DNA from: a virus
Taxonomy: Duplodnaviria; Heunggongvirae; Uroviricota; Caudoviricetes
Virus record (IMG/VR): IMGVR_UViG_2531839662_000025
Length of the DNA stretch: 58,745 bases
Reading direction: 5' to 3' (one strand)
In this document: in pieces, positions 31,868 through 58,745 of the stretch
Layout of the letters: each line of letters starts with the position of its first letter
Numbering within the stretch: the first letter of the stretch is position 1
Program-made: the position numbers and the translations under genes
Notes under the pieces: model-generated
What the model was told of the DNA's origin: nothing
Database searches by the model: none
What the model saw: the letters and a program-made list of their open reading frames with translations, nothing else

Positions 31868-31894
31868 TAAAGTCCATTTAAGTGAGGTGCATCA

Positions 31895-32389: not shown

Positions 32390-32419
32390 GGCGACCCTTT
32401 TGCGGTCGCCTTTGTTTTG
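32390..32419 (+). terminator. rho-independent terminator
   Basis: GGCGACC/GGTCGCC stem followed by a T-run. Confidence 0.55.
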
Positions 32420-33282: not shown

Positions 33283-33301
33283 TGCTTTTTACCTCACATA
33301 C

Positions 33302-33328
33302 AAAAAACCCCGCATTGCGTGGTGCGGG
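33302..33328 (-). terminator. rho-independent terminator
   Basis: 7-bp GC-rich stem followed by U-run on minus strand, after the AlpA-like gene. Confidence 0.6.
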
Positions 33329-33339
33329 GTTGTCGGTAA

Positions 33340-33618: not shown

Positions 33619-33681
33619 AAAAATATCACCTATAAAAAAACCCGCCAAAAGACGGGTTGATTATATCTCATTTAATTTAGC

Positions 33682-33915
33682 TCAGGGTTTCCATTCACCT
33701 TTTACCCATTCCAGCACCTCAGATAAGCGCCAGACTTTTGTTTGTGGGCCAATACATATTTTTCGTGGAAATTTTCCTTCCTTTTCAAGTAACGATCTGT
33801 GTCTCCTGCCAAGAGCGGTTAACCATGCACATTCATCTTCCTTAATCATCCTGTCGATTGTTTCATCATTTTCAAGTTCTTCACGCGTAACTATTTGAAT
33901 CATTACTGTCACCAC
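33682..33915 (-). CDS. AlpA-family regulator / excisionase-like
   Basis: 77-aa HTH ORF next to integrase. Confidence 0.55.
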   Translation of the reverse strand: MVTVMIQIVTREELENDETIDRMIKEDECAWLTALGRRHRSLLEKEGKFPRKICIGPQTKVWRLSEVLEWVKGEWKP

Positions 33916-35104
33916 TAATTTGCTTATTCAGATAGTCGTACCACCAGTTCATAGCTTCTTTTTTTCTGTCCATATACTGGCTTCTGTTATAAACCCCGGC
34001 AACACCGCCTAATGTGTGCCCAAGCAACTGTTCAACCACATTATGTTCAAAACCATGATCACTTAGTTTTGTGGCAAACACTCTTCGCATATCATGCGCC
34101 GTCCATTTCTCCGAGTGTTTCATCCTTTTCCATGTCTTACCGATAGTTACGCTTGCCGTACACTGACGCATATCAAACCCAATCACATTTTCTTTGTTAC
34201 CTGTTATTTTTTTTAACGTAACTAACCAGTTAAACATGCCATCAGGAATCGGTCTGATTATTTCCCTGCCATTTTTGCTATGATCAGCGGGAACGCGCCA
34301 TAATTTCTTATCAAAATCCCACTCTACCCAGGACGACAGTAATACTTCTGACAGTCGACAACCAAAAACTACCAGGAAACGTAAAATAATTCGGTTTTCA
34401 TATGATAATTCGTGATTGTCATAATCAGTATTAATACTTCGCCATAAATCTCTGATTTCATCATCTGTTAAAACCCTGCTTCTTCGCGCAGACTTTTTTC
34501 CCACATCACAGACCTCAAGATCATCAATTTCATGACTAATCGCGTATTTTCTTACCCTACAAAATTTAAGCGCCTGTTTTGATATACGCAACAAAGCTCC
34601 GGCCTGTACAGGTGCTACTTTTTTTATTTTGTCAAAACACTTAATCCACATAGATATAGAGCAATCACTAAGTGGTACATGACCAATCACCGGATAAATA
34701 TGTTTACCAAAGCACTGCCTGATATGTTCTGCTCCCCTACGCTTATCCATTGCATAATTATCAAGCCAGTATTCAAGTGCCTCACGAACGGTAACAGGTT
34801 GCAAGGTGGCTTCCCGTTCAATTTTTATCTGAATCCGTGGATCTCTGCCCTCCGCAAGCCAGGTTCGACACTGATCGCGCATCTCTCTCGCTGATTTGAG
34901 ACTCAGATCAGGATATTTTCCAAGTGTCAGCCAGATGGGCGCGGTTCCCCTTCCCGCCAGTCTGTAAAAGAAAACAAAACTAACACATCCGTATTTACTG
35001 ACCCGTACCGAAAGCCCGTTACCATCAGCGATGGTTTCCTGCCTCTCACTCCTGCGTCCAAGCAGGGAACGAAGTTTTTTATCGCTCAGTTTGTTTAGCG
35101 CCAT
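33881..35104 (-). CDS. tyrosine integrase (P4-type)
   Basis: Track ORF 33881-35140; likely start MALNKLSDKKL at 35104; P4-type N-terminal arm-binding pattern and C-terminal catalytic region. Confidence 0.8.
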   Translation of the reverse strand: MALNKLSDKKLRSLLGRRSERQETIADGNGLSVRVSKYGCVSFVFFYRLAGRGTAPIWLTLGKYPDLSLKSAREMRDQCRTWLAEGRDPRIQIKIEREATLQPVTVREALEYWLDNYAMDKRRGAEHIRQCFGKHIYPVIGHVPLSDCSISMWIKCFDKIKKVAPVQAGALLRISKQALKFCRVRKYAISHEIDDLEVCDVGKKSARRSRVLTDDEIRDLWRSINTDYDNHELSYENRIILRFLVVFGCRLSEVLLSSWVEWDFDKKLWRVPADHSKNGREIIRPIPDGMFNWLVTLKKITGNKENVIGFDMRQCTASVTIGKTWKRMKHSEKWTAHDMRRVFATKLSDHGFEHNVVEQLLGHTLGGVAGVYNRSQYMDRKKEAMNWWYDYLNKQISGDSNDSNSYA

Positions 35105-35124
35105 GTGATTTATAACCCGTTTTT

Positions 35125-35145
35125 GCAATACACAGTGCAATACAC
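35125..35145. repeat. arm-type repeat GCAATACACAGTGCAATACAC
   Basis: Direct repeat of the motif at 20377-20397. Confidence 0.5.
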
Positions 35146-35275
35146 AAATGATGAAAACAGCCAGAACCTTCCAGAAAAAACAAAAACGACGAACAAGAAA
35201 AAATCTTTTTCTTTCATTTGGTTACTAAAAAAATCAGGACAGGTCGCACTGTTGTTACGGCGTGATGTTACTTTC

Positions 35276-35290
35276 TTGGTAAAAAAATTC
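35276..35290. repeat. putative att core (right junction of satellite)
   Basis: TTGGTAAAAAAATTC at the point where the host terL reading frame is lost. Confidence 0.5.
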
Positions 35291-36303
35291 ACCCGCGCAG
35301 AGACCTGCTCCTTCGCTTTTTTCGCCAGACGACGCAGATCATCCCAGCGTTTACAGATGCCCAGGCCAGGATTCGCTTTCTGCCAGACCGTTTCATCAAA
35401 CGGATCATCTCCCTCATCGAGCGTGTAAATGATCGCAAAGTAGGAGTCGTCTTTTACCGCGCCCTCCACGTCGCTGTTATAGCCTCGCAATACCTTAATG
35501 GCGTAATCGCGCTGCTCGTAGCAAATCCCTTCCTTGTTAAAGCCAGCCGTGGTGATGCCAAATAACAGAGACTGCAGACGGGCACCGGTTGCCGTTTCCA
35601 GAACGTCCCACACGTCACGGGTTTTATGAGCATGCAGCTCATCAATAATGGCGCAGTGGATGTTCAGACCGTCCAGGTTGTTTGCATCCGAGGAAAGCGG
35701 TTCAAATTTTGATGCGCTCTGCTCCTGGTAAATCGCCAGCTTGTTGAAATCAAACAACCGCCCGAGTGTCGACCGGGCTTTTCTGACCATATTTTTGGCG
35801 TCTTCAAACACAATTCTGGCCTGGTCACGCGTGGTTGCGGCTGAATACACCTCAGCACCGCCTTCACCATCTGCCCCCGTCATATACAGGCCGATACCCG
35901 ATGACAGGGTTGATTTTGCGTTTTTACGGGCGACTTCGTTGTACGCCGTCCGGAACCGGCGCACCATCACCGGACGTCCGCTGCCATCGCTGCGTATGAC
36001 AACTTCCCCGGTCTCTTCATTGACCAGCGGAATGACAAAACCAAAAATATTAATGAGGATAAATACATGCCAGTCCATCAGTTCAATGGGCTGGCCTGCC
36101 AGCGCCCCTTTTACATGGGGCACAAATTTGTAGAAATTCAGGATGTGCTGCGCACGGGGTTCACTGAAATAAATCCCCCGCTCTTCGCCGTACTTCAGAT
36201 CATCAAGAAAACGCTGGCAGGCCAGACGGACAAATTCGCCAGCGACAATTTCTCCTGCAACAACACGTTCGGCGTAGCGGATCCCGTCAGCCACTTTTGC
36301 CAT
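35283..36303 (-). pseudogene. terminase large subunit, N-terminal (ATPase) fragment of the host prophage
   Basis: Track ORF 35110-36303: first ~345 aa are TerL-like, then the frame runs into satellite sequence and becomes low-complexity. Confidence 0.8.
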
Positions 36304-40270: not shown

Positions 40271-40345
<75 letters not shown>

Positions 40346-40348
40346 ATA

Positions 40349-40424
<76 letters not shown>

Positions 40425-44717: not shown

Positions 44718-44870
44718 TTACTTCTCAGATTCGTAGTCCACGAAGACAGCAACCTCCGTCTGGCCGGTTCGGATTCGTACCTCACAGAGGTCTTTCCTCG
44801 TTACCAGTGCCGTCACTATGACGGTTAAACAGATGACGATCAGGGCGATTAACATCGCCTTTTGCTGCTT
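44718..44870 (-). CDS. hok: Hok/Gef-family type I toxin
   Basis: 50-aa MKQQKAMLIALIVICLTVIVTALVTRKDLCEVRIRTGQTEVAVF; track ORF extends in frame upstream to 44930. Confidence 0.85.
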   Translation of the reverse strand, partial: KQQKAMLIALIVICLTVIVTALVTRKDLCEVRIRTGQTEVAVFVDYESEK

Positions 44871-45132
44871 CATAGCCTGCTTCTCCTTGCCTTTCGGCAC
44901 GTAAGAGGCTAACCTAGATTTGCCGTTCATAGATTGAGCCTCAGATTAATGTTAAGCGTCTTGCAGGACGCGTAATGTTAACTGGGGCTTTTCTCTATCT
45001 GCCTTTTGGTGTTCATGCCTGAGACAGATAGCCTCAAGCACCCGCAGTCATTCTACTTAACTAAGATTTCCCCGCAAACCGTTTTTGTCCGGCACAGTAA
45101 ATATCCAACTAAACCAATGGCGTTCGCTGTAT

Positions 45133-45351
45133 TTACCGCCAGTATTCAATGCACATGACCGCCATGAACACCCCTAAAAAAAGGGCATTTATATATCCAA
45201 ATATTAATATCAAAACATCAACTTTTTCCATATACCTTGCTGTGAAGATGATGGGCATACATGATACGAACAACCAGAACGCAACAAACAAAAACTGCAA
45301 TGCGTTTTTCATTATTCCTCCTACAATCAATGTGCAATTACATTTAAACAC
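45133..45351 (-). CDS. small membrane protein (moron)
   Basis: 72-aa hydrophobic ORF in an AT-rich segment. Confidence 0.4.
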   Translation of the reverse strand: MFKCNCTLIVGGIMKNALQFLFVAFWLFVSCMPIIFTARYMEKVDVLILIFGYINALFLGVFMAVMCIEYWR

Positions 45352-45964
45352 ACCTCAATTTGGCCGGACATATAAATATCTAAACCAGAAAAAATCACTT
45401 ACATAGCGTTACAAACTCTTTAGTCTAAATATTCATCGTAAAACATTCCCCATACTTATCAGCCCGTTCTGCGCCAGGTAGCTCATTGCCTTATCTGGGA
45501 ATCTGTAATCAGGTTTCCGGATGCTGGTGGATTTTCGCGTTTTAGTTGTTCATAAAAGTGCACAGCTTTAACCAGTTCTTCTGATGTAACCGGGACTGAC
45601 GGGGCAGTGAATAAGGCCTGAATTTCATAGTTCGGCCTGTCGTTACAATCCTCTTTTTTCGGTACATATTTCCAGTCACCAGACCACTACTTCCCCTGAA
45701 AGTCCGTAACGCCTTTTTTTTCACGTAGCGATATCGCCATGCCACTGTTTTTGCTTGCCCCGCCGTTTCATGCCCTTCCTGATAATTAACCTCGCTCATT
45801 CATCGCCCCACTCATCACAATATGCTTCGACCGGAGTTTTTCCTGCTTCATAATCATCACGCCATGCTTCAGCATCAGCAGCACTGCCACCACGTAACTC
45901 TGCATAGTCCATTAACAGTTCATGTCATTCTTCAAAACTGACGTTGTATTTAGTTGAACCAAAA

Positions 45965-46147
45965 TCAGCCATTTTGTTCTTCCTCTTCGTCTTTTATTTC
46001 GTGATATGAGTAACTGCAGTAGTTAAAGAAAATATCTTTTGCTTCGTCATGTATTTCATCAGGCGTCGCATCATCATCCACTTCGAATTCATCCTCGAAA
46101 TCTCCACCGGCTATTCCCGTTTCAATAATTATTTTAAACTTTCGCAT
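45965..46147 (-). CDS. small acidic hypothetical protein
   Basis: 60-aa ORF, highly acidic. Confidence 0.35.
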   Translation of the reverse strand: MRKFKIIIETGIAGGDFEDEFEVDDDATPDEIHDEAKDIFFNYCSYSYHEIKDEEEEQNG

Positions 46148-46240
46148 TTAACTACCGCCCTTTCGGGCGGCCTCCTGATGTTCTGAGGGTGCAGAAATCC
46201 CTCCGGTTAAGGATTAAATTTTTAACAGAGCTAAATTTAA

Positions 46241-46597
46241 TTATTCAGTTCTGGATTTTGTCGCCCTGCGTATCCGCGCTTTCGCGTTACGCTCAATCTG
46301 AATTAACTTTTCTATATTTTTCCGTCTTTCCTGTTCCTCCTGGCGCAATAGCCTTACATCATCTGCCAGTCTGGTTTCTCTTTTCGCCACAGAGAGCATC
46401 CAGTCAAACGACTCCACAACTGCACCGCAGATTTTACAGCGGACCTGACGCTCTTTTTCGTCAACCCGGACAGAGGCGTGATGGCAATATGGTCTTTCCG
46501 ATGGCTCATAAAGAAAATTAACCTGATTACGTGGGTCATCCTCTTTTGCCGGAAATAAAACAATATTACTTAACTCATCTTCTGGTTTTATTTCCAT
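46241..46597 (-). CDS. hypothetical protein with zinc-ribbon-like motif
   Basis: Track ORF 46241-46639; likely start MEIKPEDE at 46597; paired Cys/His motifs. Confidence 0.4.
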   Translation of the reverse strand: MEIKPEDELSNIVLFPAKEDDPRNQVNFLYEPSERPYCHHASVRVDEKERQVRCKICGAVVESFDWMLSVAKRETRLADDVRLLRQEEQERRKNIEKLIQIERNAKARIRRATKSRTE

Positions 46598-46985
46598 ACT
46601 CCTCTCCTTTGATATGAATGCCAGCAATACGTAGTTCATGTTCTAAGTCAGCCAGATAAAGCCAGCAGCCATTTTCTTTAGGTATCATGACGTAGCGCTC
46701 ATCATCATTTATCGGATGTCCATATCGAAGGCCGTAGCGAGTCGGCAAATGAACTTCCCGCGCTTCCAGCTCTTTAATGCGTTCCTCGAGTTCGTAGACT
46801 CTGCATTGTTCTTTATCATCAATCAGATATAACCCAAGACATTCGCTTTCTACCCAGCCACCGAAATCATGATCGTAACGCTCACACGAAAACTCACCAT
46901 CGCTGTCCCTTGTTGGAATGGTGTAACTGTCTAATGGGCCGCCATACGTCGGCACATTGCCCAATTTCGGATGCTCAATCCACAT
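46575..46985 (-). CDS. hypothetical phage protein
   Basis: Track ORF 46575-47105; likely start MWIEHPKLG at 46985. Confidence 0.4.
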   Translation of the reverse strand: MWIEHPKLGNVPTYGGPLDSYTIPTRDSDGEFSCERYDHDFGGWVESECLGLYLIDDKEQCRVYELEERIKELEAREVHLPTRYGLRYGHPINDDERYVMIPKENGCWLYLADLEHELRIAGIHIKGEEYGNKTRR

Positions 46986-47031
46986 GAAAAATGCACGTCC
47001 GGTTATAGGGCAAATATCTGGTCGCCATTGG

Positions 47032-47331
47032 TTATTCACTGTTTGCCTCCTGGAAAATAACTGCATGCCCCAGCTTCTCCGCCAGTGCCAATTCTGCCTT
47101 AGCACCTGCTGACCGCTGCCAGCCTTTCAGCATGTAAATCGCATCCACACAACGAATCATTGCCATGCAAATATCCATGTAGTGTGGCTGTGTCAGCCCG
47201 TCCGGAAGTACTGCCGGGTTTAAGACTGTATGCCCTTCCCGTTTCAGTTCCTCTTCCGCATTGTGGAACGCCTCACGGTTGAAATTTTTATACCCGGTCA
47301 TTGGACCGGCGATATAAACCCTTACCCTCAC
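47032..47331 (-). CDS. DUF4406-like protein
   Basis: 99-aa ORF with YIAGPMTG motif; GTG start overlapping the stop of the upstream IS-disrupted gene. Confidence 0.5.
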   Translation of the reverse strand: MRVRVYIAGPMTGYKNFNREAFHNAEEELKREGHTVLNPAVLPDGLTQPHYMDICMAMIRCVDAIYMLKGWQRSAGAKAELALAEKLGHAVIFQEANSE

Positions 47332-47433
47332 TCCATCACCTCCTGAAAATCTCCCTGATAGAACGCCAGTACACGCTGCATAACCTCACTCTGACGGCAC
47401 TCACGGCAAATTATGTTCTGGTGTCGGTCGTAG

Positions 47434-47441
47434 GGTTGTGC
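47434..47441. repeat. 8-bp target site duplication GGTTGTGC (left)
   Basis: Identical 8-mer at 50147-50154, immediately outside the IS termini. Confidence 0.75.
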
Positions 47442-47471
47442 GTAAGCGGCTCGCCAGAACCGTATTGATAT

Positions 47472-49043
47472 TTACTGAGAGGTCAGATCAACTTTCCAGG
47501 GCAACAGATCGCGTACCCGGTTTGCCGGCCAATCCTGGATATGCTCAATGACGTAACGCAGCCATTTTTCTGGTTCCACATTGTTCAGACGGCATGTGCC
47601 GATCAGCGAGTACAACACCGCCGCATGTTCGCCACCGCTGTCGGAACCCGCGAAGAGCCAGTTTTTCCGGCCTACGGCCACTCCCCGTAAGGCGTTCTCT
47701 GCGATGTTGTTGTCGATTTCCACCCAGCCATTACTGCAGTACACGTTCAGGGCCTCCCACTGTTTCAGCAGGTATGCGAACGCTTTTGCCGTATCCGAGT
47801 GACGCGACAGTGTTTTCATCTGTTCCTGTATCCAGTCATACAGTGACTGCATCAGTGGAGCCGCTCTGGCTTTTCTTGCTGCCAGACGCTGTTCTGCTGA
47901 ACATCCCCGGACTTCTGCCTCGATGACATACAGTTCACCGATACGCTGCAGGGCTTCCGTGGTGATGTCGGTGGGCACTCTTGCATGCACATCGTGGATT
48001 TTTCTCCGGGCATGGGCCATACACGCGGCTTCCGTTATTCTGCCGGATTCGTATAACGCCCGGTAACCACCGTAAGCATCTGCCTGAAGCACACCGCTGT
48101 AACCGGCCAGGTGATTCTGTGGATGGATACCTTTCCGGTCCGGGCTGTACGCGAACCAGACCGCCGGGGGCATCTGTGAACCGGCGTTACGGTCATCACG
48201 GACATAGACCCACAGCCGGGCAGTTCTTGTTTTACCACTGCCCGGCTCCTGGACCGGAACGGGGATATCATCCGCATGGACTTTACCGGGCATCAGCACA
48301 TACTGGCGCAGGACGTCATACAGCGGCTCCAGCAGTTCAGCAACGGCACCTGTCCAGCGCCCCAGCGTGGCGCGGCTCAGCTCCACGCCCTGGCGACGGT
48401 ATATTTCTGACTGGCGGTATAACGGCAGATGGTCTGCATATTTCCCGGTAACAACATGGGCCAGAAGCCCCGCTCCGGCATAACTGCGTGCAATGGGTTT
48501 TGAAGGTACTGTTGCCTGCACGATATGGTCGCACCGACAACAGGCCAGTTTCGGACGTTGTGTTTCGATAACCTTAAAGGCGCTGCTGATAAGCTCCAGT
48601 TGCTCTGACACATCACACCCCAGAGGACTGAGGTCACCACCACAGGCCGGGCAGCATTCCTCTTCCGGCCGGATGACCCGGGTTTCACGGGGAAGTGAGG
48701 CCGGTAACGGTTTACGGGCTGAAGACTGGCGCAGGGCGGATGGCAGTACCGGGTCATATTGCTCACCCAGCGTTTCCGCCATTTCTTCCTGAAGTGCGCT
48801 GATTCGCTCCTGTGCTTCCTGTATCTGCCGTTCGGTTTTAGCGCGAAGTTTTTCTGAGCTTTTACCGAACTGCATGCGCTGCAGTTTCGCAACCAGCGCC
48901 TTCAGCCGGTTGATTTCGGAAGCATAAGCCGCCACCCGCTGTGAGAGCAGGCGGTTGTATTTCGCCATCTGGCGGATGGTGTCCTGTTGCGTCTGCAACA
49001 GTGCCCGCAGGCGGGCATTCTCATGAGCAAGTGAGGTGTCCAT
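47472..49043 (-). CDS. tnpC: IS66-family transposase TnpC
   Basis: 523-aa ORF with N-terminal leucine zipper, CCPACGG zinc motif and DDE-type core. Confidence 0.9.
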
Positions 49044-49062
49044 ATCCTCACTTTACAACGGG

Positions 49063-49411
49063 TTATATGCGGATGCCAGCGCGTTCCGTTCGTTTCGGGT
49101 GCTTCCAGTCGATGCCTTCGAGAAGCATGGACAACTGAGCCGGAGTAAGGTGAACCTTTCCATCGCGGGTGACCGGCCAGACGAAGCGGCCCCGCGTCCA
49201 GGCGTTTGGTGAAGAGGCACAGTCCGTCACTGTCAGCCCACAGCACTTTTATCTGGTCACCCCGGCGTCCGCGGAAGATGAACAGATGCCCGGAGAACGG
49301 GTCATCCTTCAGGACGTTCTGAACTTTTGAGGCCAGGCCGTTAAAGCCATTTCGCATATCGGTGATACCGGCAACCAGCCAGATACGCGAACCGGCAGGG
49401 AGAGATATCAT
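49063..49411 (-). pseudogene. tnpB: IS66-family TnpB, apparent +1 frameshift in a G-run
   Basis: Track ORF 48902-49411 leaves the expected frame after KRL; the shifted frame gives RFVWPVTRDGKVHLTPAQLSMLLEGIDWKHPKRTERAGIRI and stops just before tnpC. Confidence 0.5.
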
Positions 49412-50061
49412 CAGTGGCTGCTCCCTTTCATTTCGCGGATAAGTGTCTGTAATAACGCCGGTGTCAGTTCACCTTTCAGCCTGAGAGTTCCGGCCGGCAG
49501 AACCAGCTCGCAGCACAGACTGTCTGGCAGTGTATTTATCTGTTCAGGTATCTGCACTGGTGCCGGGATTTTATTATCCGGCTCCGGAGTTAACGTCACG
49601 GGAAGTAGCGATGTTTCATGTTCGCCGGGCGGTTGCAGGCCACCGTTACGCCAGAGATGCCGCCAGTTAAAGAGCAGGTTATCGTTAATTCCATTCTCTC
49701 GAGCTATTTGTGCGACACAGGCACCGGGTAAAAGAGTTTGCTGAACCAGTCTCCATTTAAACTCCGGTGAAAATCGGTTCCGGCGGGGTTTCTCTGCTTT
49801 CACAGGCTGAGTCACGGTCGGGGCTGAAGGGTATCGCCCCGGGAAAAGAGCCCGGGCCAGTTGCCCGCAGGAATATTCACCGGAAAGAGGCCAGTCAGTG
49901 AATACCTGGTGAAATCGCCTCACCAGAGAAAAAATGGTGGTTTTGCTGACACCGGTCTGCGCAGAAATGCGCGGGTACGACAGTGACTCGTCAAATCTCA
50001 GCTGTAGCACACGCAGGATCAATTCCGGATTGTCTGCCAGTACCGCTTTTCGTGCATTCAT
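49411..50061 (-). CDS. tnpA: IS66-family accessory protein TnpA (orf1)
   Basis: 216-aa HTH ORF at the start of the IS operon. Confidence 0.7.
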   Translation of the reverse strand: MNARKAVLADNPELILRVLQLRFDESLSYPRISAQTGVSKTTIFSLVRRFHQVFTDWPLSGEYSCGQLARALFPGRYPSAPTVTQPVKAEKPRRNRFSPEFKWRLVQQTLLPGACVAQIARENGINDNLLFNWRHLWRNGGLQPPGEHETSLLPVTLTPEPDNKIPAPVQIPEQINTLPDSLCCELVLPAGTLRLKGELTPALLQTLIREMKGSSH

Positions 50062-50146
50062 CTTAAATGTCCCTTTACTGCGAAAATGGACATTAGTATC
50101 GGAAACAGGAAAGGGAGGCGAAAGACGGTTTAAATGAGACGGTTAC

Positions 50147-50154
50147 GGTTGTGC
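50147..50154. repeat. 8-bp target site duplication GGTTGTGC (right)
   Basis: Direct repeat of 47434-47441. Confidence 0.75.
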
Positions 50155-50442
50155 TCCGGCTTTACCCTGTTTTTGTGCTGGTTTGCGGATAACCCTTGCT
50201 TTTCTTGCCGAACTTGCCAGCCATTCACGGTAAACTCCCTCTGAAAGGAATACCCCTTTTCCGCTGACAACATACACTTCGCCCTGGCTCACCAGCATCT
50301 TCAGGTACCGGCGAATGGAATCATGTGAAGCATATGTTGTCGATGCCAGTTGTGGCATTGTCATACGCCCGTTTTTACGTACAAGGTCAACGATGTGACG
50401 CTGTAATCTTTCCCGCTGTTCTTCGGTATAAATAGCCCCCAT
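50147..50442 (-). pseudogene. winged-helix phage protein disrupted by the IS66 insertion
   Basis: Track ORF 50143-50442 takes its stop codon from the IS terminus; the same frame continues on the other side of the IS at 47441-47328 for 34 more codons. Confidence 0.65.
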
Positions 50443-50484
50443 AAACTCTCCTGAGAAAATAACTTCATAACCTCAAATCAACAC

Positions 50485-51432
50485 TTACCCCCTGAACCCC
50501 GGCGGAATTTCGGTGTCCGGTTCAGAAATGTGATTCACGCAACGCTGTACAGGCGAACGCCCCAGACGAATAACCAGCTCATCCCATTTTTCGCGAAGCT
50601 TTGACGGGCTCATGACGTTTTTTACCCAGAATGGATCCCGCTGTACCCGACCAAACATTTCGCAAATTTGTCTGTGAGTTCTGCCATCCAGCATCCGCAT
50701 TGTGCGCACATCATTGGCCCATGCAGTCCAGTTGGGTTCTTTCGGTCGCATGATTTCGCCATCATCGCTGGCAGCCTGCTCGTAAAGACTCACGATTCGT
50801 CCCCAGATCCACTGCGCACACGCTAAATCTTCCTGGCTGCCCCACTGGCGTTTTTTCGCACTGAACACAACCGCGTCAGGGTGTCGGGTTAAAAAATCCT
50901 GTTCAGCCGTCTGCGAGTCCGGTTGCGAAGCTTCCGGACGAAAAGATCTTTTATCTGACGGATCAGGTTTTAATACTGACGGATCGGGGCCAACCATCGC
51001 CCCCCTAACCGGATGTTTTTTATCAACGGTTGATCCATCAAAATTTGAGGGGTCAATCGTTGAGGGGTCAATATTTGACGGGTCATTTTTTACCGGGTTA
51101 ATTTTTCTTTTCGGTTTATATGCCTCACGCGCCGCCGCTGCTGCTGCTTCGAGTTTTTCCACATTAAGACGGTAGATATTGCTTTCATTACGCCCACCGA
51201 CCTTACGTTCTTCCTTCGTCAGCCAGCCGTTCTTTTCCAGTTCTGCTATCGCAGCTTTAACCGTTGATTCACTCTTTGCCCCAATCTGACGACGAATGGT
51301 CTCCACTGCAGGCCATGACACACCTTCGTCATTGCTGTAATCTGCAAGGCGAGCCATTACTGCCACCCTGGATAAGATCATGCCGGTGAAGGCACACCCT
51401 TCCCAGACAAGACCATGAAGCTTGCTGCTCAT
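50485..51432 (-). CDS. replication initiation protein, lambda O-like
   Basis: 315-aa ORF: N-terminal HTH, internal peptide repeats (DPSNIDPSTIDPSNFDGSTVD) encoded by DNA iterons. Confidence 0.7.
   Translation of the reverse strand: MSSKLHGLVWEGCAFTGMILSRVAVMARLADYSNDEGVSWPAVETIRRQIGAKSESTVKAAIAELEKNGWLTKEERKVGGRNESNIYRLNVEKLEAAAAAAREAYKPKRKINPVKNDPSNIDPSTIDPSNFDGSTVDKKHPVRGAMVGPDPSVLKPDPSDKRSFRPEASQPDSQTAEQDFLTRHPDAVVFSAKKRQWGSQEDLACAQWIWGRIVSLYEQAASDDGEIMRPKEPNWTAWANDVRTMRMLDGRTHRQICEMFGRVQRDPFWVKNVMSPSKLREKWDELVIRLGRSPVQRCVNHISEPDTEIPPGFRG
50954..51106. repeat. origin iterons inside the O-like gene
   Basis: Tandem TTGAGGGGTCAAT / TTGACGGGTCATT / TGACGGATC repeats followed by an AT-rich stretch. 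Confidence 0.6.
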
Positions 51433-51455
51433 AAAAAACTCCGAACACCGTGCTT

Positions 51456-51881
51456 TTAGTGCATCACCACGGCATTTCCCGCCGGACCACCACGATTCAT
51501 CTGATTGAAACCAGCGATCGCCACTGCGACAAAATCATCAGCGTCTCTCACCAGTCGTTCCCGCATCTCCACCAGCTCCCGAAAATAGGCTGAACTGTGG
51601 CTGCGCATTCGGGCCACCAGCAGAGGTGGCATTGCCTTTTCGATCGCCGGTAACAGCGCCTGAATTTTTTTAACCGCATCAGGGGTGTCTTTCTCCACCC
51701 AGCGGAAAATTTTCTGAGTATTGCGAGCCAGGGCTTCCGGATGCCTGTCGTCATATAGCTCCGGGAACGTCATACCAAGCTCAAAATAAGCCTGGGTTAT
51801 TTCAGCTGCCGGAACTTTTTCACCGTCCGGATGCGCCCAGGCATTCATCGCCATGCGGATGTGTTCATGCTTGATTTTCAT
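51456..51881 (-). CDS. YdaT-like protein (CII-like regulator)
   Basis: 141-aa ORF closely resembling Rac YdaT as I recall it. Confidence 0.6.
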   Translation of the reverse strand: MKIKHEHIRMAMNAWAHPDGEKVPAAEITQAYFELGMTFPELYDDRHPEALARNTQKIFRWVEKDTPDAVKKIQALLPAIEKAMPPLLVARMRSHSSAYFRELVEMRERLVRDADDFVAVAIAGFNQMNRGGPAGNAVVMH

Positions 51882-52093
51882 TAATCATTCTTTCCTTCGT
51901 TCGAGGTGCTATCCTGCTTCTTGTAAAGTTCTGGGTTGTATTTCAATTCACCGTTAGTAATTTCATCCAGTTCCATTGCGCGAAGTTTGGGAATAACTGC
52001 TTTCCACCGCACAACAGCCACATGTGAAATTCCAAGAGCCTCAGCTACTAGTCGCTTTTTTTTGAAATAGCGCAGAACATCATCTTTGAACAT
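51881..52093 (-). CDS. Cro-like HTH regulator (YdaS-like)
   Basis: 70-aa HTH ORF divergent from the cI-like gene. Confidence 0.65.
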   Translation of the reverse strand: MFKDDVLRYFKKKRLVAEALGISHVAVVRWKAVIPKLRAMELDEITNGELKYNPELYKKQDSTSNEGKND

Positions 52094-52121
52094 AAAACTC
52101 TCCTGTTATTTCGAGCGGGAT

Positions 52122-52184
52122 GGTAACAATAGTTACATAGCAATGTCAACCATAGCAACATCACTTGGTAGTAACATTGGTTAC
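52122..52184. promoter_or_regulatory. operator sites in the cI/cro-like divergent promoter region
   Basis: GGTAACAATAGTTAC (52122-52136) and GTAACATTGGTTAC (52171-52184); palindromic half-sites GTAAC/GTTAC. Confidence 0.55.
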
Positions 52185-52859
52185 ATGAAAAACACTATCA
52201 GCGAACGTATTCGGAATCGTCGAAAAGACGTTGGATTAACCCAACAGCAGGTTGCGAAAGCAATCGGCATATCTCGTGTATCCGTAACAAAATGGGAAAA
52301 TGGCTCTTCAAAACCTGACGGTGAGAATTTGCATCTACTGTCAAAATTGCTTTCCAAATCTCCTGAATGGATTCTTTATGGAAAGGACTGTCACGATAAA
52401 ACCGATGATCTGCGTCTGAATCAGTACCCTTACATTAGTGACAACATCGCCCGGTTGCCCGTTTTAACGTGGGAACAGGCTGGTTATTGGGATATGAGTT
52501 GTCCAGTAACCGAGATTCCTGGTATTAAGAATTGGGTTGATGTCATGACAAAAACCGCTGAAAACTCTTTTTTATTGCATGTTGAGGGAGATGCGATGAC
52601 AAACTCTAACGGCCTCCCAACCATCCCCGACGGATCTACCGTGCTGATCACACCATGCTCAAGTAACATTAGAGAACTGGTGGGAAAAATAATCTTAATC
52701 CAATTGGAAGGAACGCCAAACGTAACACTAAAAAAAGTTGCGATTGACGGACCAAACATCTATCTGTTGTCACTGAATCCGCTTTACAAACCCATCGAAC
52801 TGAATGGTGGTTACACCATTAAAGGTAAAGTTTCACAAATACATCAATACTTAGACTGA
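52185..52859 (+). CDS. CI-like repressor (HTH plus S24 LexA-like peptidase domain)
   Basis: Track ORF 52086-52859; likely start MKNTISER at 52185 (alternative 52143). Confidence 0.75.
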   Translation: MKNTISERIRNRRKDVGLTQQQVAKAIGISRVSVTKWENGSSKPDGENLHLLSKLLSKSPEWILYGKDCHDKTDDLRLNQYPYISDNIARLPVLTWEQAGYWDMSCPVTEIPGIKNWVDVMTKTAENSFLLHVEGDAMTNSNGLPTIPDGSTVLITPCSSNIRELVGKIILIQLEGTPNVTLKKVAIDGPNIYLLSLNPLYKPIELNGGYTIKGKVSQIHQYLD

Positions 52860-52864
52860 GTCAG

Positions 52865-52891
52865 AACCCGCATTCATTGCGGGTTTTTTAT
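52865..52891 (+). terminator. rho-independent terminator after cI-like gene
   Basis: AACCCGC/GCGGGTT stem followed by TTTTTT. Confidence 0.65.
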
Positions 52892-52930
52892 GCTCTCGAA
52901 TGTACCTTTTGCAACACTGTATTGACTCGA

Positions 52931-52950
52931 AAGGTAACTCTTGTTACCTT
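52931..52950. promoter_or_regulatory. operator, perfect palindrome AAGGTAAC-TCTT-GTTACCTT
   Basis: Same GGTAAC half-site as the cI/cro operators, overlapping a TTGACT -35-like hexamer at the head of the leftward operon. Confidence 0.55.
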
Positions 52951-53050
52951 AACGACATACCAACCCACCCCGCCCCACAGAACGCAGGGCAATACTTCGA
53001 GTTACCAGGCAGTGGTCAGGGGTTAAGTAGCCAGCCCGAGGCGTAAGAAC

Positions 53051-53185
53051 ATGACGGCAGGGTTCAACTTTAACTATGCAGCAGGTTTTTGTTCCGCTAC
53101 CCCGGCGTTAAGGGGAAACAGCACTGAGAGGAATCAGTATGCAGAAACGAGAACCCGTCATCATCGCGCCAGACTATACCGATGA
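53051..53185 (+). CDS. possible small ORF (44 aa, YdfB-like position)
   Basis: Hand-translated MTAGFNFNYAAGF...; overlaps the start of the next gene in another frame. Confidence 0.25.
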   Translation: MTAGFNFNYAAGFCSATPALRGNSTERNQYAETRTRHHRARLYR

Positions 53186-53357
53186 TGAACTTTATGAGTG
53201 GATGCGCCAGAAAATTACGGCAGCGCAGGACCTGAAGTGGGCCAATGAAGCCAGGGCTAAGCAGGCTGAAAATCTGTCCGCTCTGGAGCAGGATATCACC
53301 AGGCTGGAAAAAGCAGCGGCATTAAGCATTGCCAGAATGATTACATACCCGCGTTAA
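53139..53357 (+). CDS. YdfC-like small protein
   Basis: 72-aa ORF resembling Qin YdfC as I recall it. Confidence 0.55.
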   Translation: MQKREPVIIAPDYTDDELYEWMRQKITAAQDLKWANEARAKQAENLSALEQDITRLEKAAALSIARMITYPR

Positions 53358-53492
53358 TAGCTAACCAACGAGGCTAAGGTTGGTAATTAAGGAGTTCTCC
53401 ACGGGTCAGGTGGAGTGCGTGCGCCGGACACGGGTGAGCATCCGGCACGTTCTTTAAAAATCTGGATAGTCCCAACTTATTTAAACGGTTAA

Positions 53493-53927
53493 TTATCTTG
53501 AGTTCATCCAGAACTTATTATTGCAAGCGGGGCAAAAAGTACGAAAATGAGCATCAAAGCGCATTATTTCCATTGGCTGAAGTACAGATATTACCTTTTT
53601 TCCAAAGCATTGTGGGCAAAGATGCACAGTTATCTCAGTATCGCCTATAAATTGCTTCTTGGAATATACAAGGGTTCCAGAATCAAGCTTGTTAAGCTTG
53701 TAACCTTCCGCCTGTCGCTGAAAATCTTCTGTCTCTGCAATTTTTGCTTTGAGATGCATTATCTCTTCATCACGAAAGCGGATCGCATCGCAAAGAGAGA
53801 AGCATTCCGCCTGAAGCGTGATTAGTTTGTTCTGAAGTTCAATAGTTGCGGCTTTAACTTCTGCATCCGTTTTTGCGTCATTAATAACCTTAGCGAGACC
53901 AGCTGTCTCCTTTATCGCAGCCATAGC
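53493..53927 (-). CDS. hypothetical coiled-coil / zinc-ribbon protein (reverse-oriented moron)
   Basis: Track ORF 53493-54068; likely start MAAIKETAG at 53927; C-terminal CPQC...CPAC; AT-rich; antisense to the surrounding plus-strand operon. Confidence 0.5.
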   Translation of the reverse strand, partial: AMAAIKETAGLAKVINDAKTDAEVKAATIELQNKLITLQAECFSLCDAIRFRDEEIMHLKAKIAETEDFQRQAEGYKLNKLDSGTLVYSKKQFIGDTEITVHLCPQCFGKKVISVLQPMEIMRFDAHFRTFCPACNNKFWMNSR

Positions 53928-54249
53928 TGCTGACAGTTCTGCTATCACGTTGAGTACTCTTCTCGTTGTTGGGGATATCCGGATTATACGAATTTCTTGT
54001 TGTTGGGGAATAACAGGAACCACCTCGCCTGACGTGGTTAAAAGCAGGCACACAACGCGAAAGCGCACGGCGAGGTAGCTGGTTCATAGATAGCCTGTCG
54101 TTAAATTTTCGTCGACAGTGCGCTTCCGGTTGTGGCACTCCGCGAAATGGCGCGGCGGTAAGTATGGCGGGGTTATCCTTGCCCCATTAGTGGCACCGGG
54201 TTGTCAGGTTGACCATACGCCTGAGTGACAACCCCGCTGCAACAACCCA

Positions 54250-54306
54250 TGTTGATTACCTTTTTGGCGGCATCAGTTTCATTGCTGGCTGATGTCCGCC
54301 CTTTTT
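54250..54306 (+). ncRNA. dicF: DicF-like small RNA
   Basis: TTTGGCGGCATCAGTTT...CTGATGTCCGCCCTTTTT resembles E. coli DicF from memory, including terminator hairpin and T-run, immediately upstream of dicB; ends approximate. Confidence 0.45.
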
Positions 54307-54489
54307 AAAGTGAATTTTGTGATGCGGTGAATGCGGCTCAGCGCACGCGGAACAGTTAAAAAGGCCAGTTGACTTCCGTATTGGTTCTTATGGGTGGGTT
54401 CTCTGTATCCGGCGTTAATTATTAACTGGTTAACGTCACCTGGAGGCACCAGGCACCGCATCACAAAATTCATTGTTGAGGACGCGATA

Positions 54490-54678
54490 ATGGAAACGTT
54501 ATTACCAAACGTTAATACGTCTGAAGGTTGTTTTGAAATTGGTGTCAGAATCAGTAACCCTGTATTTACTGAAGATGCCATTAATAAGAGAAAACACGAA
54601 CGGGAGTTATTAAATAAAATATGCATTGTTTCAATGCTGGCCCGTTTACGTCTGATGCAAAAAGGATACTGGCAATGA
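54490..54678 (+). CDS. dicB: cell division inhibitor DicB
   Basis: 62-aa METLLPNVNTSEGCFEIGVRISNPVFTEDAINKRKHERELLNKICIVSMLARLRLMQKGYWQ, near-identical to K-12 DicB as recalled. Confidence 0.8.
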   Translation: METLLPNVNTSEGCFEIGVRISNPVFTEDAINKRKHERELLNKICIVSMLARLRLMQKGYWQ

Positions 54679-54878
54679 ATACTGCTATTGCCCTCACTCT
54701 GACTGTTTTTCTTAATACTGGCGAGCCTGTTGACATGGTTATTGACATTTACGGTTCAATGAAAGAATGCATGGCTGCCGCAGCAGAACAAAAAATTCCC
54801 GGTAACTGCTATCCGGTCGATAAAGTTATTCACATGGACAATAACGAAATCCCGGCAGGACTTAAAACAGCACCGTAA
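54675..54878 (+). CDS. YdfD-like small protein
   Basis: 67-aa ORF with hydrophobic N-terminus directly after dicB (ATGA overlap). Confidence 0.55.
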   Translation: MNTAIALTLTVFLNTGEPVDMVIDIYGSMKECMAAAAEQKIPGNCYPVDKVIHMDNNEIPAGLKTAP

Positions 54879-54958
54879 TTAATATCCGGTTTCATTTTTA
54901 TATGCCAGCAATGGCAGGGATTTGTTCACCCTTAAATCTGTAATGAGGTTAAAACAAA

Positions 54959-57439
54959 ATGAGTAAAGTCTTTATTTGCGCCGCCATTCCGGACGAACAG
55001 GCAATAAAGGAAGAAGGTGCAGTCGCTGTAGCCACTGCCATTGAAGCCGGCGACGAACGCCGCGCCCGTGCCAAATTTACCTGGCAATTCCTGGAGCAAT
55101 ATCCGGCTGCTCAGGACTGCGCTTATAAATTTCTTGTCTGCGAGGATAAACCCGGCATGCCCCGCCCTGCCATCGACTCCTGGGATACCGAATATATGCT
55201 GGAAAACCGCTGGGATGAGGAAGGCGCTTCCTTTGTTCCGGTCGAACCAGAATCCGATCCGATGAACGTCAATTTTGACAAGCTGTCCCTTGAAGTACAG
55301 AACGCGGTCCTGGTTAAGTTCGGTACATGTGAAAACATCACCGTTGATATGGTGATTAGTGCACAGGAATTGTTGCAGGAGGACATGGCAACATTCGACG
55401 GGCATATCGTTGAGGCACTGATGAAAATGCCTGAAGTTAACGTCATGTATTCAGAACTAAAGCTGTTCGCCATCGGGTGGGTTAAACATAAATGTAAGCC
55501 GGGCGCAAAATGGCCTGAGATCCAGACAGAATTACGCACCTGGAAAAAACGTCGCGAAGCCGAACGCAAAGAAACCGGGAAATACACGTCTGTTGTTGAT
55601 CTTGCCCGCGCCAGAGTCAACCGGCAGCACACTGAAAACTCAGCAGGAAAAATCAACCCCGCCACTGCCGCCATTCGTCGCGAATACAAGCAGACATGGA
55701 AAACGCTGGATGAAGAACTGGCCTACGCTCTGTGGCCTGGCGATATTAATGCCGGAAACATTGACGGCAGCATCCATCGCTGGGCAAAAAATGAAGTTAT
55801 CGACAAAGATCGCGAAGACTGGAAGCGCATTTCCGCATCAATGCGCAAACAACCCGATGCCGTTCGCTACGACCGTCAGACTATTTTTGGCCTTGTCCGT
55901 GAGCGTCCGATCGACATTCACAAAGATCCCGTGGCACTGAACAAATACATCACTGAATACCTGGTGACAAAGGGCGTGTTTGAGGATGAAGAAACAGACC
56001 AGAACACTACTGATATTCTCCAGCCGTCAGCAGCACAAACTGATGCAGTGGAAACTGAAGTATCTGATACCCAAAAAAATGAAAGCACGCTGGAAACTGA
56101 ACCATCTGTAGAGCGTGAGGGGCCGTTCTACTTCCTTTTCACCGATAAGGATGGCGAAAAATATGGTCGTGCAAACAAACTTTCTGGTCTGAATAAGGCG
56201 CTGGCTGCAGGGGCTACTGAAATCACGAAAGAAGAATATTTTGCCCGCAAAAACGGCACATACTCAGGTTCACAACAAAATACTGGTGCATCTGACACGA
56301 CCGCACAACCGGAGCCGGTAAAAGTTACCGCTGACGAAGTAAACAAAATTATGCAGGCAGCCAATATCAGCCAGCCTGACGCCAATCAGTTGCTTGCTGT
56401 ATCACGTGGTGAATTTGTTGCAGGGATTAGCGACCCGAATGATCCGAAATGGGTGAAGGGGATTGAAACCCGCGATTCAGTGAATCAGAACCAGCAAGAA
56501 ACGGAACAGAACGACCAGAAAGCGGAACAAAACAGCCCAAATGCGTTACAAAACGAGCCAGAAACGAAACAACCTGAGCCAGTAGCGCAACAGGAAGCGG
56601 AAAAAGTCTGCACCGCCTGCGGTCAGACCGGCGGCGGCAACTGCCCTGATTGTGGTGCGGTGATGGGCGACGCAACATACCAGGAAACATTCGATGAAGA
56701 GAATCAGGTTGAAGTTCAGGAAAATGATCCGGAGGAAATGGAAGGCGCTGAACATCCACACAAGGAGAATGCTGGCAGCGCTCAGGACCACGCCAGCGAT
56801 AATGAAACTGGCGAGACGGCAGATCCCTTAATTGCGGTGAACGGTCATCACGTTATCACATCCACCAGCAGAGTGTGGTACCACCTGATGATCGACCTTG
56901 AAACAATGGGAACCAACACCAATGCGCCCATCGTGGTTATTGGTGCGGTTTTCTTCGACCCACAAACAGGGGAAATCGGGCCAGTATTTTATATCGTTAT
57001 CAGTCTGACTGACGCAATGAATACAGGGGCTGTTCCTGACGGTGGAACCATCGAATGGTGGCTGAAGCAGTCCAGTGAAGCCAGAGCTGCCATTTTAACA
57101 GACCAGGTAAAACTGAAGGATGCCCTTTCGCGGTTTCGGGAGTTCATCAACGAATACTCAGATGAAAAATTCGTTCAGGTATGGGGTAATGGTGCAACTT
57201 TCGATAACGCAATTTTGCGCACCTCATACGAACGTCTGGACATCCCCTGCCCGTGGCGCTACTACAACGATCGCGATGTACGCACAATCGTTGAGCTGGG
57301 AAAAACAATCGACTTTGATGCCAGAACAGTTATTCCATTTGAAGGCGTGCGCCACAATGCGCTGGATGATGCCCGTCACCAGGCAAAATACGTTACAGCC
57401 ACGATACAAAAACTGATCCCGAATCCGGTTGATTTTTAA
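54959..57439 (+). CDS. large early-left protein with C-terminal DEDD-type 3'-5' exonuclease domain
   Basis: 826-aa ORF; C-terminal ~200 aa carry exonuclease-like [18 protein letters not shown] and HNALDDARH motifs; internal [16 protein letters not shown] zinc ribbon. Confidence 0.55.
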
Positions 57440-57505: not shown

Positions 57506-57757
57506 ATGTACGAATTAACTCTATCGCCAGCAGAGATTCAAGAGATCACGAAATACGAGCGATACACAAAACAGCAACACCAGTTAAGGCTGCACGGTAT
57601 CCCATTTGTAATCGGTCCTAAAAACGAACCAATAGTTCTTCGCAGGGATATTCCACACGGACTGACTACGATGCCAAAAGCACCTGAACTGGTTTCCGCT
57701 GAACCCGATTTTGAGGCGCTGAACAATGGGAAGACCAAGAAAAAACAAAAAAGATAA
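57506..57757 (+). CDS. putative excisionase (Xis-like)
   Basis: 83-aa ORF immediately upstream of and overlapping the integrase. Confidence 0.4.
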   Translation: MYELTLSPAEIQEITKYERYTKQQHQLRLHGIPFVIGPKNEPIVLRRDIPHGLTTMPKAPELVSAEPDFEALNNGKTKKKQKR

Positions 57758-58745
57758 TGCACTACCACCGCGTGTTAGATCGAATGGTTACAGTTACGTA
57801 TGGAAACCCGAAGGAAGCACAAGAACTATAGGGCTCGGAAGAGTGCGGGAAACCAGCGTAGCTAAAGTCTGGCAAAATTATGAGCTGGAAAAAGCAAAAC
57901 TCCACAACATAATGACAGTAGCTAAATTATGGCACATGTTTATGGACTCCCCTGCATTTACAGAACTGGCCCCCCGAACCCAAAAAGATTATCGGCAACA
58001 TCAAAGGGCATTGTTGGCAGTATTCGGAAAAGTGCTTGCTGATAATGTAAAAATTGAACAGGTAAGAATTTTCATGGATAAGCGAGGACTTGAGAGCAAG
58101 ACCCAGGCAAACCATGAACTGGCAAGTCTGAGCCGTGTATACGGATGGGGATATGAGCGTGGGTATGTGAAAAATAATCCATGCAAAGGAGTCAGAAAAT
58201 TCACACTTAAAGCCCGTACTGTTTACATCACCGATGAACAGTATGCTGCAATATATGCGGAAGCAATTCCACAGTTACGTATTGCAATGGAGATATCCTA
58301 TCTTTGTGCGGCAAGGCTCGGTGATGTACTCGAGCTGAAATGGCAGGATATTATGGATAAAGGGATTTACATTGAGCAAAACAAGACCGGCACTAAACAA
58401 ATCAAGGAATGGTCTCCGCGATTACGTACGGCGATCCAGTTAGCCCGAAATGTATCTTCCGGCACATGCGAGTATGTGATCAACACAACCAAAGGCGGGA
58501 AGGTAATAGCCAAGACGCTGAACAACTGGTGGAATCAGGCTAAACGTGCGGCCGAGCAAAAAGCCGGCGTTCCGTTTGGGTGCAACTTCCATGACATAAA
58601 AGCCAAAGGGATTTCAGATTACGAAGGCAGCAGTCGCGACAAACAAATTTTCAGTGGACACAAAACAGAAAATCAGGTGTTGATTTACGATCGTAAAACC
58701 AAAATCACCCCAACACTGGATTTGCCGCTTGTGGTCAGTAAGTAG
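57726..58745 (+). CDS. tyrosine integrase (lambda-type) of the host prophage
   Basis: 339-aa ORF ending at the window edge; phage-integrase N-terminal SAM-like and C-terminal catalytic regions. Confidence 0.8.
   Translation: MGRPRKNKKDNALPPRVRSNGYSYVWKPEGSTRTIGLGRVRETSVAKVWQNYELEKAKLHNIMTVAKLWHMFMDSPAFTELAPRTQKDYRQHQRALLAVFGKVLADNVKIEQVRIFMDKRGLESKTQANHELASLSRVYGWGYERGYVKNNPCKGVRKFTLKARTVYITDEQYAAIYAEAIPQLRIAMEISYLCAARLGDVLELKWQDIMDKGIYIEQNKTGTKQIKEWSPRLRTAIQLARNVSSGTCEYVINTTKGGKVIAKTLNNWWNQAKRAAEQKAGVPFGCNFHDIKAKGISDYEGSSRDKQIFSGHKTENQVLIYDRKTKITPTLDLPLVVSK

What the first reader, a model, noticed from the sequence alone, without database searches (positions are those of the whole stretch)
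47434..50154. Recent IS66-family insertion truncating an early phage gene
A 2705-bp element with tnpA, tnpB and tnpC, termini GTAAGCGGCTC and GAGACGGTTAC, and flanking 8-bp direct repeats GGTTGTGC. The host ORF at 50147-50442 reads straight into the IS terminus and takes its stop codon from it; the same frame resumes on the far side for 34 codons and ends overlapping the DUF4406 gene start. The intact target duplication indicates a comparatively recent insertion.
Basis: seen in the sequence. Interest (0 to 1): 0.5.

Follow-up and report, generated by a model that had tools for sequence, protein, structure and literature searches.

The report
IS679-type insertion splitting a prophage gene
A common E. 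coli jumping gene (an IS66-family insertion sequence of the IS679 type) sits inside a small accessory gene of a prophage; this is ordinary, already annotated in a sister strain, and this copy has a broken helper gene.

Summary
A 2705-bp IS66-family element lies at 47442-50146. It has imperfect terminal inverted repeats (17/25) and a perfect 8-bp target duplication, GGTTGTGC. It splits a 133-codon DUF977 ("Ren-like") gene of a Rac-like E. coli prophage. Removing the IS and one repeat copy restores an ORF 133/133 identical to WP_064578958.1, which is uninterrupted in 11 complete E. coli genomes.

The element is the IS679 type. Its TnpC is 98.7% identical to a protein that NCBI names "IS66-like element IS679 family transposase".

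- tnpB is frameshifted by one extra base at about 49196. Otherwise the copy is identical to an intact 2704-bp plasmid copy. It is therefore probably non-autonomous, unless the extra base is an assembly error.
- The insertion is not private. It occurs at the same position in porcine ETEC strain UMNF18, in a 99.5%-identical prophage, and in junction contigs of two other assemblies.

The window matches GCA_000194535.2 at 100%. This is a known element doing a known thing, so interest is low.

The parts
47434..47441 (.). Left copy of the 8-bp target-site duplication, GGTTGTGC
   Evidence: Empty sites L003 and L004 carry a single copy.
47442..50146 (-). IS66-family insertion sequence of the IS679 type, 2705 bp (2704 bp plus 1 inserted base). 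Its genes are on the minus strand, co-oriented with the prophage early operon.
   Evidence: It is 99.7-100% identical to 2704-bp copies in pig E. coli, which have their own 8-bp duplications (GGATAAAT, CCACAGCC, GATTATTC).
47442..47466 (.). Terminal inverted repeat next to the tnpC end (GTAAGCGGCTCGCCAGAACCGTATT)
   Evidence: 17/25 complementary to the other terminus.
50122..50146 (.). Terminal inverted repeat next to the tnpA end (reverse complement GTAACCGTCTCATTTAAACCGTCTT). It supplies the TAA stop of the truncated host ORF.
49411..50061 (-). tnpA, 216 aa, accessory HTH protein
   Evidence: Pfam HTH_Tnp_1. NCBIfam IS66_access_TnpA, 284 bits. 216/216 identical to the pRHB27-C20_4 copy.
49063..49411 (-). 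tnpB pseudogene. A 1-bp insertion near 49196 shifts the frame after codon 71. The mechanical ORF 48902-49411 (169 aa) runs 142 nt past the tnpC start. The C-terminal 43 codons lie in another frame (49063-49230).
   Evidence: The Pfam and NCBIfam TnpB_IS66 profile is split across two frames.
47472..49043 (-). tnpC, 523 aa, DDE transposase (leucine zipper, zf-IS66, DDE_Tnp_IS66 and C-terminal element)
   Evidence: 516/523 identical to the UMNF18 protein named IS679 family transposase, and 523/523 to the plasmid copy.
50147..50154 (.). Right copy of the target-site duplication, GGTTGTGC
50143..50442 (-). 5' part of the interrupted DUF977 / Ren-like gene. It gives a 99-aa product that keeps the winged-helix domain, with its stop codon taken from the IS end. 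The exact protein is on record as WP_000500987.1.
47328..47441 (-). Orphaned 3' part of the DUF977 gene (34 codons plus TGA, and the left repeat copy). Its stop overlaps the DUF4406 start.
   Evidence: The equivalent fragment is annotated as an incomplete DUF977 pseudogene in UMNF18.
47032..47331 (-). Downstream DUF4406 (nucleoside 2-deoxyribosyltransferase-like) gene, intact

Best explanation
An IS66-family insertion sequence of the IS679 type transposed into codon 99 of a 133-codon DUF977 ("Ren-like") accessory gene. That gene lies in the early operon of a Rac-like E. coli prophage.

**Shown**
- The staggered 8-bp cut at GGTTGTGC was repaired into the flanking direct repeats.
- The host protein is cut to 99 residues and ends on a stop codon from the IS terminus.
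- The last 34 codons are orphaned.
- The insertion happened once in an ancestor of a small group of (porcine) E. coli and has been inherited with the prophage.
- This copy has since gained one extra base in tnpB.

**Inferred**
- All three ORFs are reported to be required for IS679 transposition (Han et al. 2001, from memory). This copy is therefore probably unable to move on its own.
- It could still be mobilised in trans by intact sister copies, since its ends and tnpC are intact.
- The IS genes point the same way as the operon, and no convincing terminator is predicted. Read-through to the downstream genes is therefore plausible.
For: - **Anatomy:**
- **Independent copies with the same ends and their own 8-bp duplications:**
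- **Empty sites:** 11 complete genomes carry the uninterrupted site at 95.7-99.0% identity, annotated as DUF977 then DUF4406. The empty-site DNA has one GGTTGTGC, and the rebuilt protein is 133/133 identical.
- **Occupied site in UMNF18:** same position, same duplication and same orientation, with the left flank 742/742 identical. The whole prophage is 99.5-99.7% identical over 46 kb.
- **Other occupied sites:** junction contigs from GCA_002516985.1 and GCA_002231075.1 match at 100%.
- **tnpB frameshift:** it is the only difference from the 2704-bp copy on pRHB27-C20_4. It is absent from 5,522 matching places in 5,426 complete genomes. The 169-aa product is not in the protein collection.
- **Terminators:** counts are not above chance, with 6 found against 3.7 ± 2.2 expected.
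Against: - The extra base could be an assembly error. The source is a draft assembly (L009), and the base lies 2 nt from a CCAGG Dcm site, not in a homopolymer.
- The requirement for tnpB rests on my memory of Han et al. 2001, which could not be opened here.
- The IS679 name is indirect. The exact TnpC is labelled only "IS66 family transposase", and members of the same 90% cluster are labelled ISCro1.
- The UMNF18 copy differs from this one by a 30-difference patch at 47823-48273. That patch needs gene conversion between IS copies, or repeat mis-assembly, to fit a single ancestral insertion.
Confidence: 0.93

Rival explanations
1. The tnpB frameshift is a sequencing or assembly artefact. On this reading the copy is a fully intact, autonomous IS679-type element.
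For: - The allele is found nowhere else.
- It is the sole difference from an intact plasmid copy.
- The source is a draft whole-genome shotgun assembly, in which IS copies are repeats.
- The sister assembly UMNF18 carries many annotated frameshifts.
Against: - The insertion is not in a homopolymer: GGAGCGGGG becomes GGACGCGGGG on the gene strand.
- The record is a second-version assembly and matches the window exactly over 10.3 kb.
- As I recall Han et al. 2001, many natural IS66-family copies carry ORF mutations.
Confidence: 0.3
2. The shared occupied site reflects independent insertions into a preferred IS679 target, not common descent.
For: The UMNF18 copy at the same site differs by 37 positions. 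Thirty of them cluster in a 450-bp stretch of tnpC, as if a different IS variant had inserted.
Against: - Position, orientation and duplication are identical, and the left flank is 742/742 identical.
- The prophages are 99.5% identical, down to the same 15-kb element nested in terL.
- Two similar divergent patches also occur outside the IS, at about 29-30 kb and 50.9-51.3 kb. Patchy recombination or mis-assembly is therefore a general feature of this pair.
- The four known target duplications share no consensus.
- The three contigs that first looked like extra occupied sites are empty sites cut by contig ends.
Confidence: 0.05
3. The repeats and ORFs are a chance resemblance or an assembly chimera, not a real mobile-element insertion.
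For: None found.
Against: - Pfam and NCBIfam scores are far above the curated cut-offs.
- There are thousands of near-identical copies with the same ends.
- The empty site is exact.
- Junction contigs come from independent assemblies.
Confidence: 0.01

Closest known systems
IS679 (IS66 family; Han et al. 2001, plasmid pB171 of EPEC B171)
   Same: - The intact sister copies are 2704 bp, the length I recall for IS679.
- The gene order is tnpA-tnpB-tnpC. The tnpA stop overlaps the tnpB start (TGATG), and a 19-nt spacer precedes tnpC.
- The terminal repeats are about 25 bp, imperfect, and start with GTAA.
- The target duplication is 8 bp.
- TnpC is 516/523 identical to the UMNF18 protein that NCBI names "IS66-like element IS679 family transposase".
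   Different: - This copy is 2705 bp and has a frameshifted tnpB.
- Its exact TnpC is labelled only "IS66 family transposase" by NCBI.
- It could not be compared with the ISfinder or pB171 reference, which is not in the collections.
ISCro1 (IS66 family, Citrobacter rodentium; 24 copies in strain ICC168, PMC3072379)
   Same: It falls in the same 90% protein cluster. TnpC is 511/523 identical to an E. coli protein labelled as ISCro1 family.
   Different: It is slightly more distant than the protein labelled IS679: 97.7% against 98.7%.
The same insertion in E. coli UMNF18 (NZ_AGTD01000001.1, 1097367-1100483)
   Same: - It has the identical site, duplication and orientation, in the same prophage next to yccA.
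- RefSeq annotates it as a DUF977 protein, then tnpA, tnpB and the IS679 family transposase, then an incomplete DUF977 pseudogene.
   Different: - Its tnpB is intact.
- It has a divergent 450-bp patch in tnpC.
- It has homopolymer indels in the flank.
DUF977 family (PF06163) / PHROG 142 "Ren-like exclusion protein": the interrupted host gene
   Same: - The rebuilt 133-aa protein matches phrog_142 end to end, E = 8e-33.
- The 99-aa truncated product matches DUF977 profile positions 4-89 of 134, E = 2.9e-15; the rebuilt protein was not scanned against Pfam.
- It sits directly after the O-like replication gene, where ren sits in lambda (this position is from my own knowledge).
   Different: Its function is untested. 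The truncated product keeps the winged-helix part (HTH_24, residues 11-54) and lacks the C-terminal 34 residues.

Membership tests
IS66 family of insertion sequences | A DDE transposase (TnpC) with the DDE_Tnp_IS66 core, an IS66 zinc finger and a leucine-zipper region | tested here: met
   PF03050 at 347 bits, plus PF13005, PF13007 and PF13817. NCBIfam transpos_IS66 at 475 bits against a cut-off of 180.
IS66 family of insertion sequences | Accessory genes tnpA and tnpB upstream of tnpC in one orientation, with tnpA and tnpB overlapping and a spacer of about 20 nt before tnpC | tested here: met
   NCBIfam IS66_access_TnpA scores 284 bits and IS66_TnpB 90.6 bits. Intact copies show tnpB ending 19 nt before tnpC.
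IS66 family of insertion sequences | Imperfect terminal inverted repeats of about 20-30 bp beginning GTAAGCG or similar | tested here: met
   17/25 positions match. Only 4 of 200,000 random pairs reach this. The same ends occur in four other copies.
IS66 family of insertion sequences | An 8-bp target-site duplication | tested here: met
   GGTTGTGC occurs twice here and once at empty sites. An 8-bp duplication is reported for IS66 in PMC6778807.
IS679 (named element) | At least 95% nucleotide identity, or at least 98% transposase identity, to the ISfinder reference (the ISfinder isoform rule, from my own knowledge) | not testable with these tools
   The reference, pB171, is not in the collections. 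A proxy is available: 98.6% nucleotide and 98.7% TnpC identity to a copy whose transposase NCBI labels as IS679 family.
Autonomous (self-mobilising) IS679 copy | All three reading frames intact. They are reported as essential by Han et al. 2001 (from memory; the paper was not readable here). | tested here: not met
   tnpB carries a 1-bp insertion after codon 71, so its profile match is split over two frames.
DUF977 (PF06163), the host gene | A significant match to the family profile, and an uninterrupted orthologue in relatives | tested here: met
   56.9 bits against a cut-off of 22.1 for the 99-aa part. The rebuilt ORF is 133/133 identical to WP_064578958.1.

The most novel reading that the evidence does not exclude
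The insertion may have been retained because it is useful to the host or to the prophage. It could disable a Ren-like exclusion or regulatory protein, or dampen expression of the downstream early and late-regulator genes. Together with the 15-kb element lodged in terL, this would help lock the prophage into a harmless, domesticated state in a porcine E. coli lineage.
Probability: 0.07. Interest if true: 0.25.

Novelty: already known. Interest (0 to 1): 0.07.

Why it matters
It matters little beyond correct annotation. The DUF977 gene here should be flagged as a pseudogene split by an IS. The IS itself should be flagged as a tnpB-defective copy. The prophage carries at least two mobile-element disruptions, this IS and a 15-kb element in terL, so it should not be assumed inducible. 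The shared insertion is a convenient lineage marker for a small group of strains: UMNF18, GCA_000194535.2, GCA_002516985.1 and GCA_002231075.1.

Tried and rejected
1. **Reference comparison.** I looked for the IS679 reference plasmid pB171 under NC_002142 and AB024946. It is not in the collections, so the name rests on NCBI labels.
2. **Original paper.** I tried to read Han et al. 2001 by DOI and by PMC95320. It is not held. Its PMC id was confirmed only from a reference list.
3. **Literature on TnpB.** A search for newer mechanistic work on IS66 TnpB found nothing relevant.
4. **Extra occupied sites.** The exact-protein look-up returned six contigs. I first read L010-L012 as further occupied sites, one of them in a different prophage background, which would have hinted at a hot spot. 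Reading their last bases showed the empty-site continuation (..CAACC|CTA). They are genes cut by contig ends, selected because the look-up is by exact product. I dropped the hot-spot idea.
5. **Promoters and terminators.** The scan found no promoter-like site, and terminator-like sites were not above chance. It therefore gives no support for an IS-borne outward promoter or for strong polarity.
6. **Phage collection.** No record holds the empty site in full.
7. **Second copy.** There is no second IS copy or stray IS end elsewhere in the window.

Full report
**Observation**

- GGTTGTGC lies at 47434-41 and again at 50147-54, bracketing a 2705-bp segment at 47442-50146.
- The segment's ends, GTAAGCGGCTC... 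and ...GAGACGGTTAC, are imperfect inverted repeats matching at 17 of 25 positions. Only 4 of 200,000 random 25-mer pairs from the window do as well. An 8-bp match at a fixed junction has a chance of about 1.6e-5.
- On the minus strand the segment encodes three proteins:
  - a 216-aa TnpA (NCBIfam IS66_access_TnpA, 284 bits);
  - a TnpB;
  - a 523-aa TnpC with the full IS66 transposase architecture (PF03050 at 347 bits, plus zinc finger, leucine zipper and C-terminal element; NCBIfam 475 bits).
- The host ORF 50143-50442 (minus strand, 99 aa) ends ...GCA CAA CCG TAA. The G of the last codon and the stop come from the IS terminus.

**Empty-site test**

- Deleting the IS and one repeat copy gives a 402-nt ORF of 133 codons. 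Its TGA overlaps the GTG of the DUF4406 gene.
- An 800-bp reconstruction of the empty site is found uninterrupted in 11 complete E. coli genomes at 95.7-99.0% identity. In every one it is annotated as a DUF977 family protein followed by a DUF4406 protein.
- In two of them, Z0117EC0133 and ETEC1732, the site has a single GGTTGTGC. Their DUF977 protein, WP_064578958.1, is 133/133 identical to the rebuilt ORF.
- The two halves are therefore one gene.

**What the element is**

- In E. coli complete genomes and in plasmids, the best matches are 2704-bp elements with the same ends.
- Three sister copies that I examined have their own 8-bp duplications: GGATAAAT, CCACAGCC and GATTATTC. A fourth has none, as expected after recombination between copies.
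- The one complete genome with this same site occupied is the porcine ETEC strain UMNF18. There RefSeq calls the transposase "IS66-like element IS679 family transposase".
- The window's TnpC is 516/523 identical to that protein. It is 511/523 identical to a cluster mate labelled as ISCro1 family.
- From memory of Han et al. 2001 (J Bacteriol 183:4296, PMC95320; not readable here), IS679 is 2704 bp. I also recall 25-bp imperfect terminal repeats, an 8-bp duplication and three essential ORFs.
- I therefore call this an IS679-type member of the IS66 family. The comparison with the reference sequence itself could not be made.

- The Pfam and NCBIfam TnpB profile is split. Positions 1-70 fall in ORF 48902-49411 and positions 66-100 in ORF 49063-49230.
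- Alignment to intact copies shows one extra base near 49196. On the gene strand, CTGGAGCGGGG becomes CTGGACGCGGGG.
- The protein is identical to the 115-aa TnpB for 71 residues. It then runs out of frame for 98 codons, 142 nt past the tnpC start.
- This base is the only difference from the copy on plasmid pRHB27-C20_4, from UK pig faeces.
- The allele is absent from 5,522 matching places in 5,426 complete genomes. Its product is not in the 15-billion-protein collection.
- It is either a very young mutation or an assembly error. It is not in a homopolymer, but it lies 2 nt from a CCAGG site.
- If the base is real, and if tnpB is essential as I recall, this copy cannot move on its own. Sister copies could still mobilise it, because its ends and tnpC are intact. 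This step is inferred.

**Age and spread**

- Window 45143-55442 is 100.000% identical to GCA_000194535.2 contig AFAB02000119.1. No tnpB gene is called there either, so this is very probably the source.
- UMNF18 has the insertion at the identical base, with the same duplication and orientation. The left flank is 742/742 identical.
- The whole prophage, next to yccA, is 99.5-99.7% identical to the window over 46 kb.
- Differences between the two prophages are concentrated in three patches: about 29-30 kb, 47823-48273 inside tnpC (30 differences) and 50.9-51.3 kb. I read these as recombination or gene-conversion tracts, or as repeat mis-assembly in one of the drafts.
- Two short contigs from other assemblies, GCA_002516985.1 and GCA_002231075.1, bridge the junction at 100% identity.
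- Three other contigs returned by the exact-protein look-up are empty sites cut by contig ends, not occupied sites.
- The insertion is therefore young. The duplication is perfect, the split gene has no amino-acid change, and the IS is one base from a circulating plasmid copy. It is nevertheless inherited by a small lineage, not private to this genome.

**Consequences for the prophage**

- The interrupted gene follows the cro-like, YdaT/CII-like and O-like replication genes in the early operon.
- It falls in PHROG 142, "Ren-like exclusion protein" (E = 8e-33). That is an accessory, non-essential category.
- The 99-aa product keeps the winged-helix region and loses 34 C-terminal residues.
- The IS genes are co-oriented with the operon. 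Terminator-like sites are not above chance (6 against 3.7 ± 2.2) and no promoter-like site is found. Read-through to DUF4406 and beyond is plausible but untested.

**Verdict**

This is a correct observation of an ordinary, well-described event. An IS679-type IS66-family element has inserted in a prophage accessory gene, and the same insertion is already annotated in a RefSeq genome. The only additions are the tnpB defect and the lineage-level sharing. Interest is low.

Noticed in passing
window about 20302-35282 (junction cores TTGGTAA at 20295-20301 and 35276-35282): A 15-kb integrase-bearing element is nested inside the prophage's terminase large-subunit gene. The N-terminal part of terL is ORF 35110-36303(-) and the C-terminal part is ORF 19565-20290(-). 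An uninterrupted terL exists in many E. coli genomes, for example strain E9. Going by the annotation of the 99.5%-identical UMNF18 region, the element carries an integrase, HTH regulators, BRO-N, an Icd-like protein, a DUF927 primase, SSB, PerC, a major capsid protein, a prohead protease, a portal, a head-tail connector, HNH, TerS and TerL. It has no tail genes. From memory, that gene set resembles a capsid-forming PICI-type satellite. It would inactivate the host prophage's packaging unless it excises.
   Followed up: partly
window 1-58745: The window is an entire prophage cut at gene boundaries. It starts on a stop codon and ends on the stop codon of the integrase gene (57726-58745). In UMNF18 the same prophage lies next to yccA. 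Window 45143-55442 is 100% identical to GCA_000194535.2 contig AFAB02000119.1.
   Followed up: partly
window about 29000-30000 and 50900-51330: Two divergent patches stand out against the otherwise near-identical UMNF18 prophage. One has 75 differences in the DUF927 primase gene of the nested element. The other has about 55 differences plus indels in the O-like replication gene. They look like mosaic recombination tracts or paralogue mis-assembly.
   Followed up: no
window 44868-45043 (-): There is a full-length match to the Rfam sok antitoxin RNA (112 bits). In relatives it lies next to a Hok/Gef toxin gene, so this is a hok/sok type I toxin-antitoxin module in the nin-like region.
   Followed up: no
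window 40271-40424 (-): Two phage-borne tRNA genes, tRNA-Gly(TCC) and tRNA-Thr(TGT), lie between the DNA methyltransferase gene and the lysis region.
   Followed up: no
L002 (ETEC1738 chromosome, NZ_CP122768.1 3564736-3567439): This 2704-bp sister copy has no matching 8-bp flanks (CAATAATT on one side, CTATTAAG on the other). That is as expected if recombination between two IS copies rearranged the flanks.
   Followed up: no
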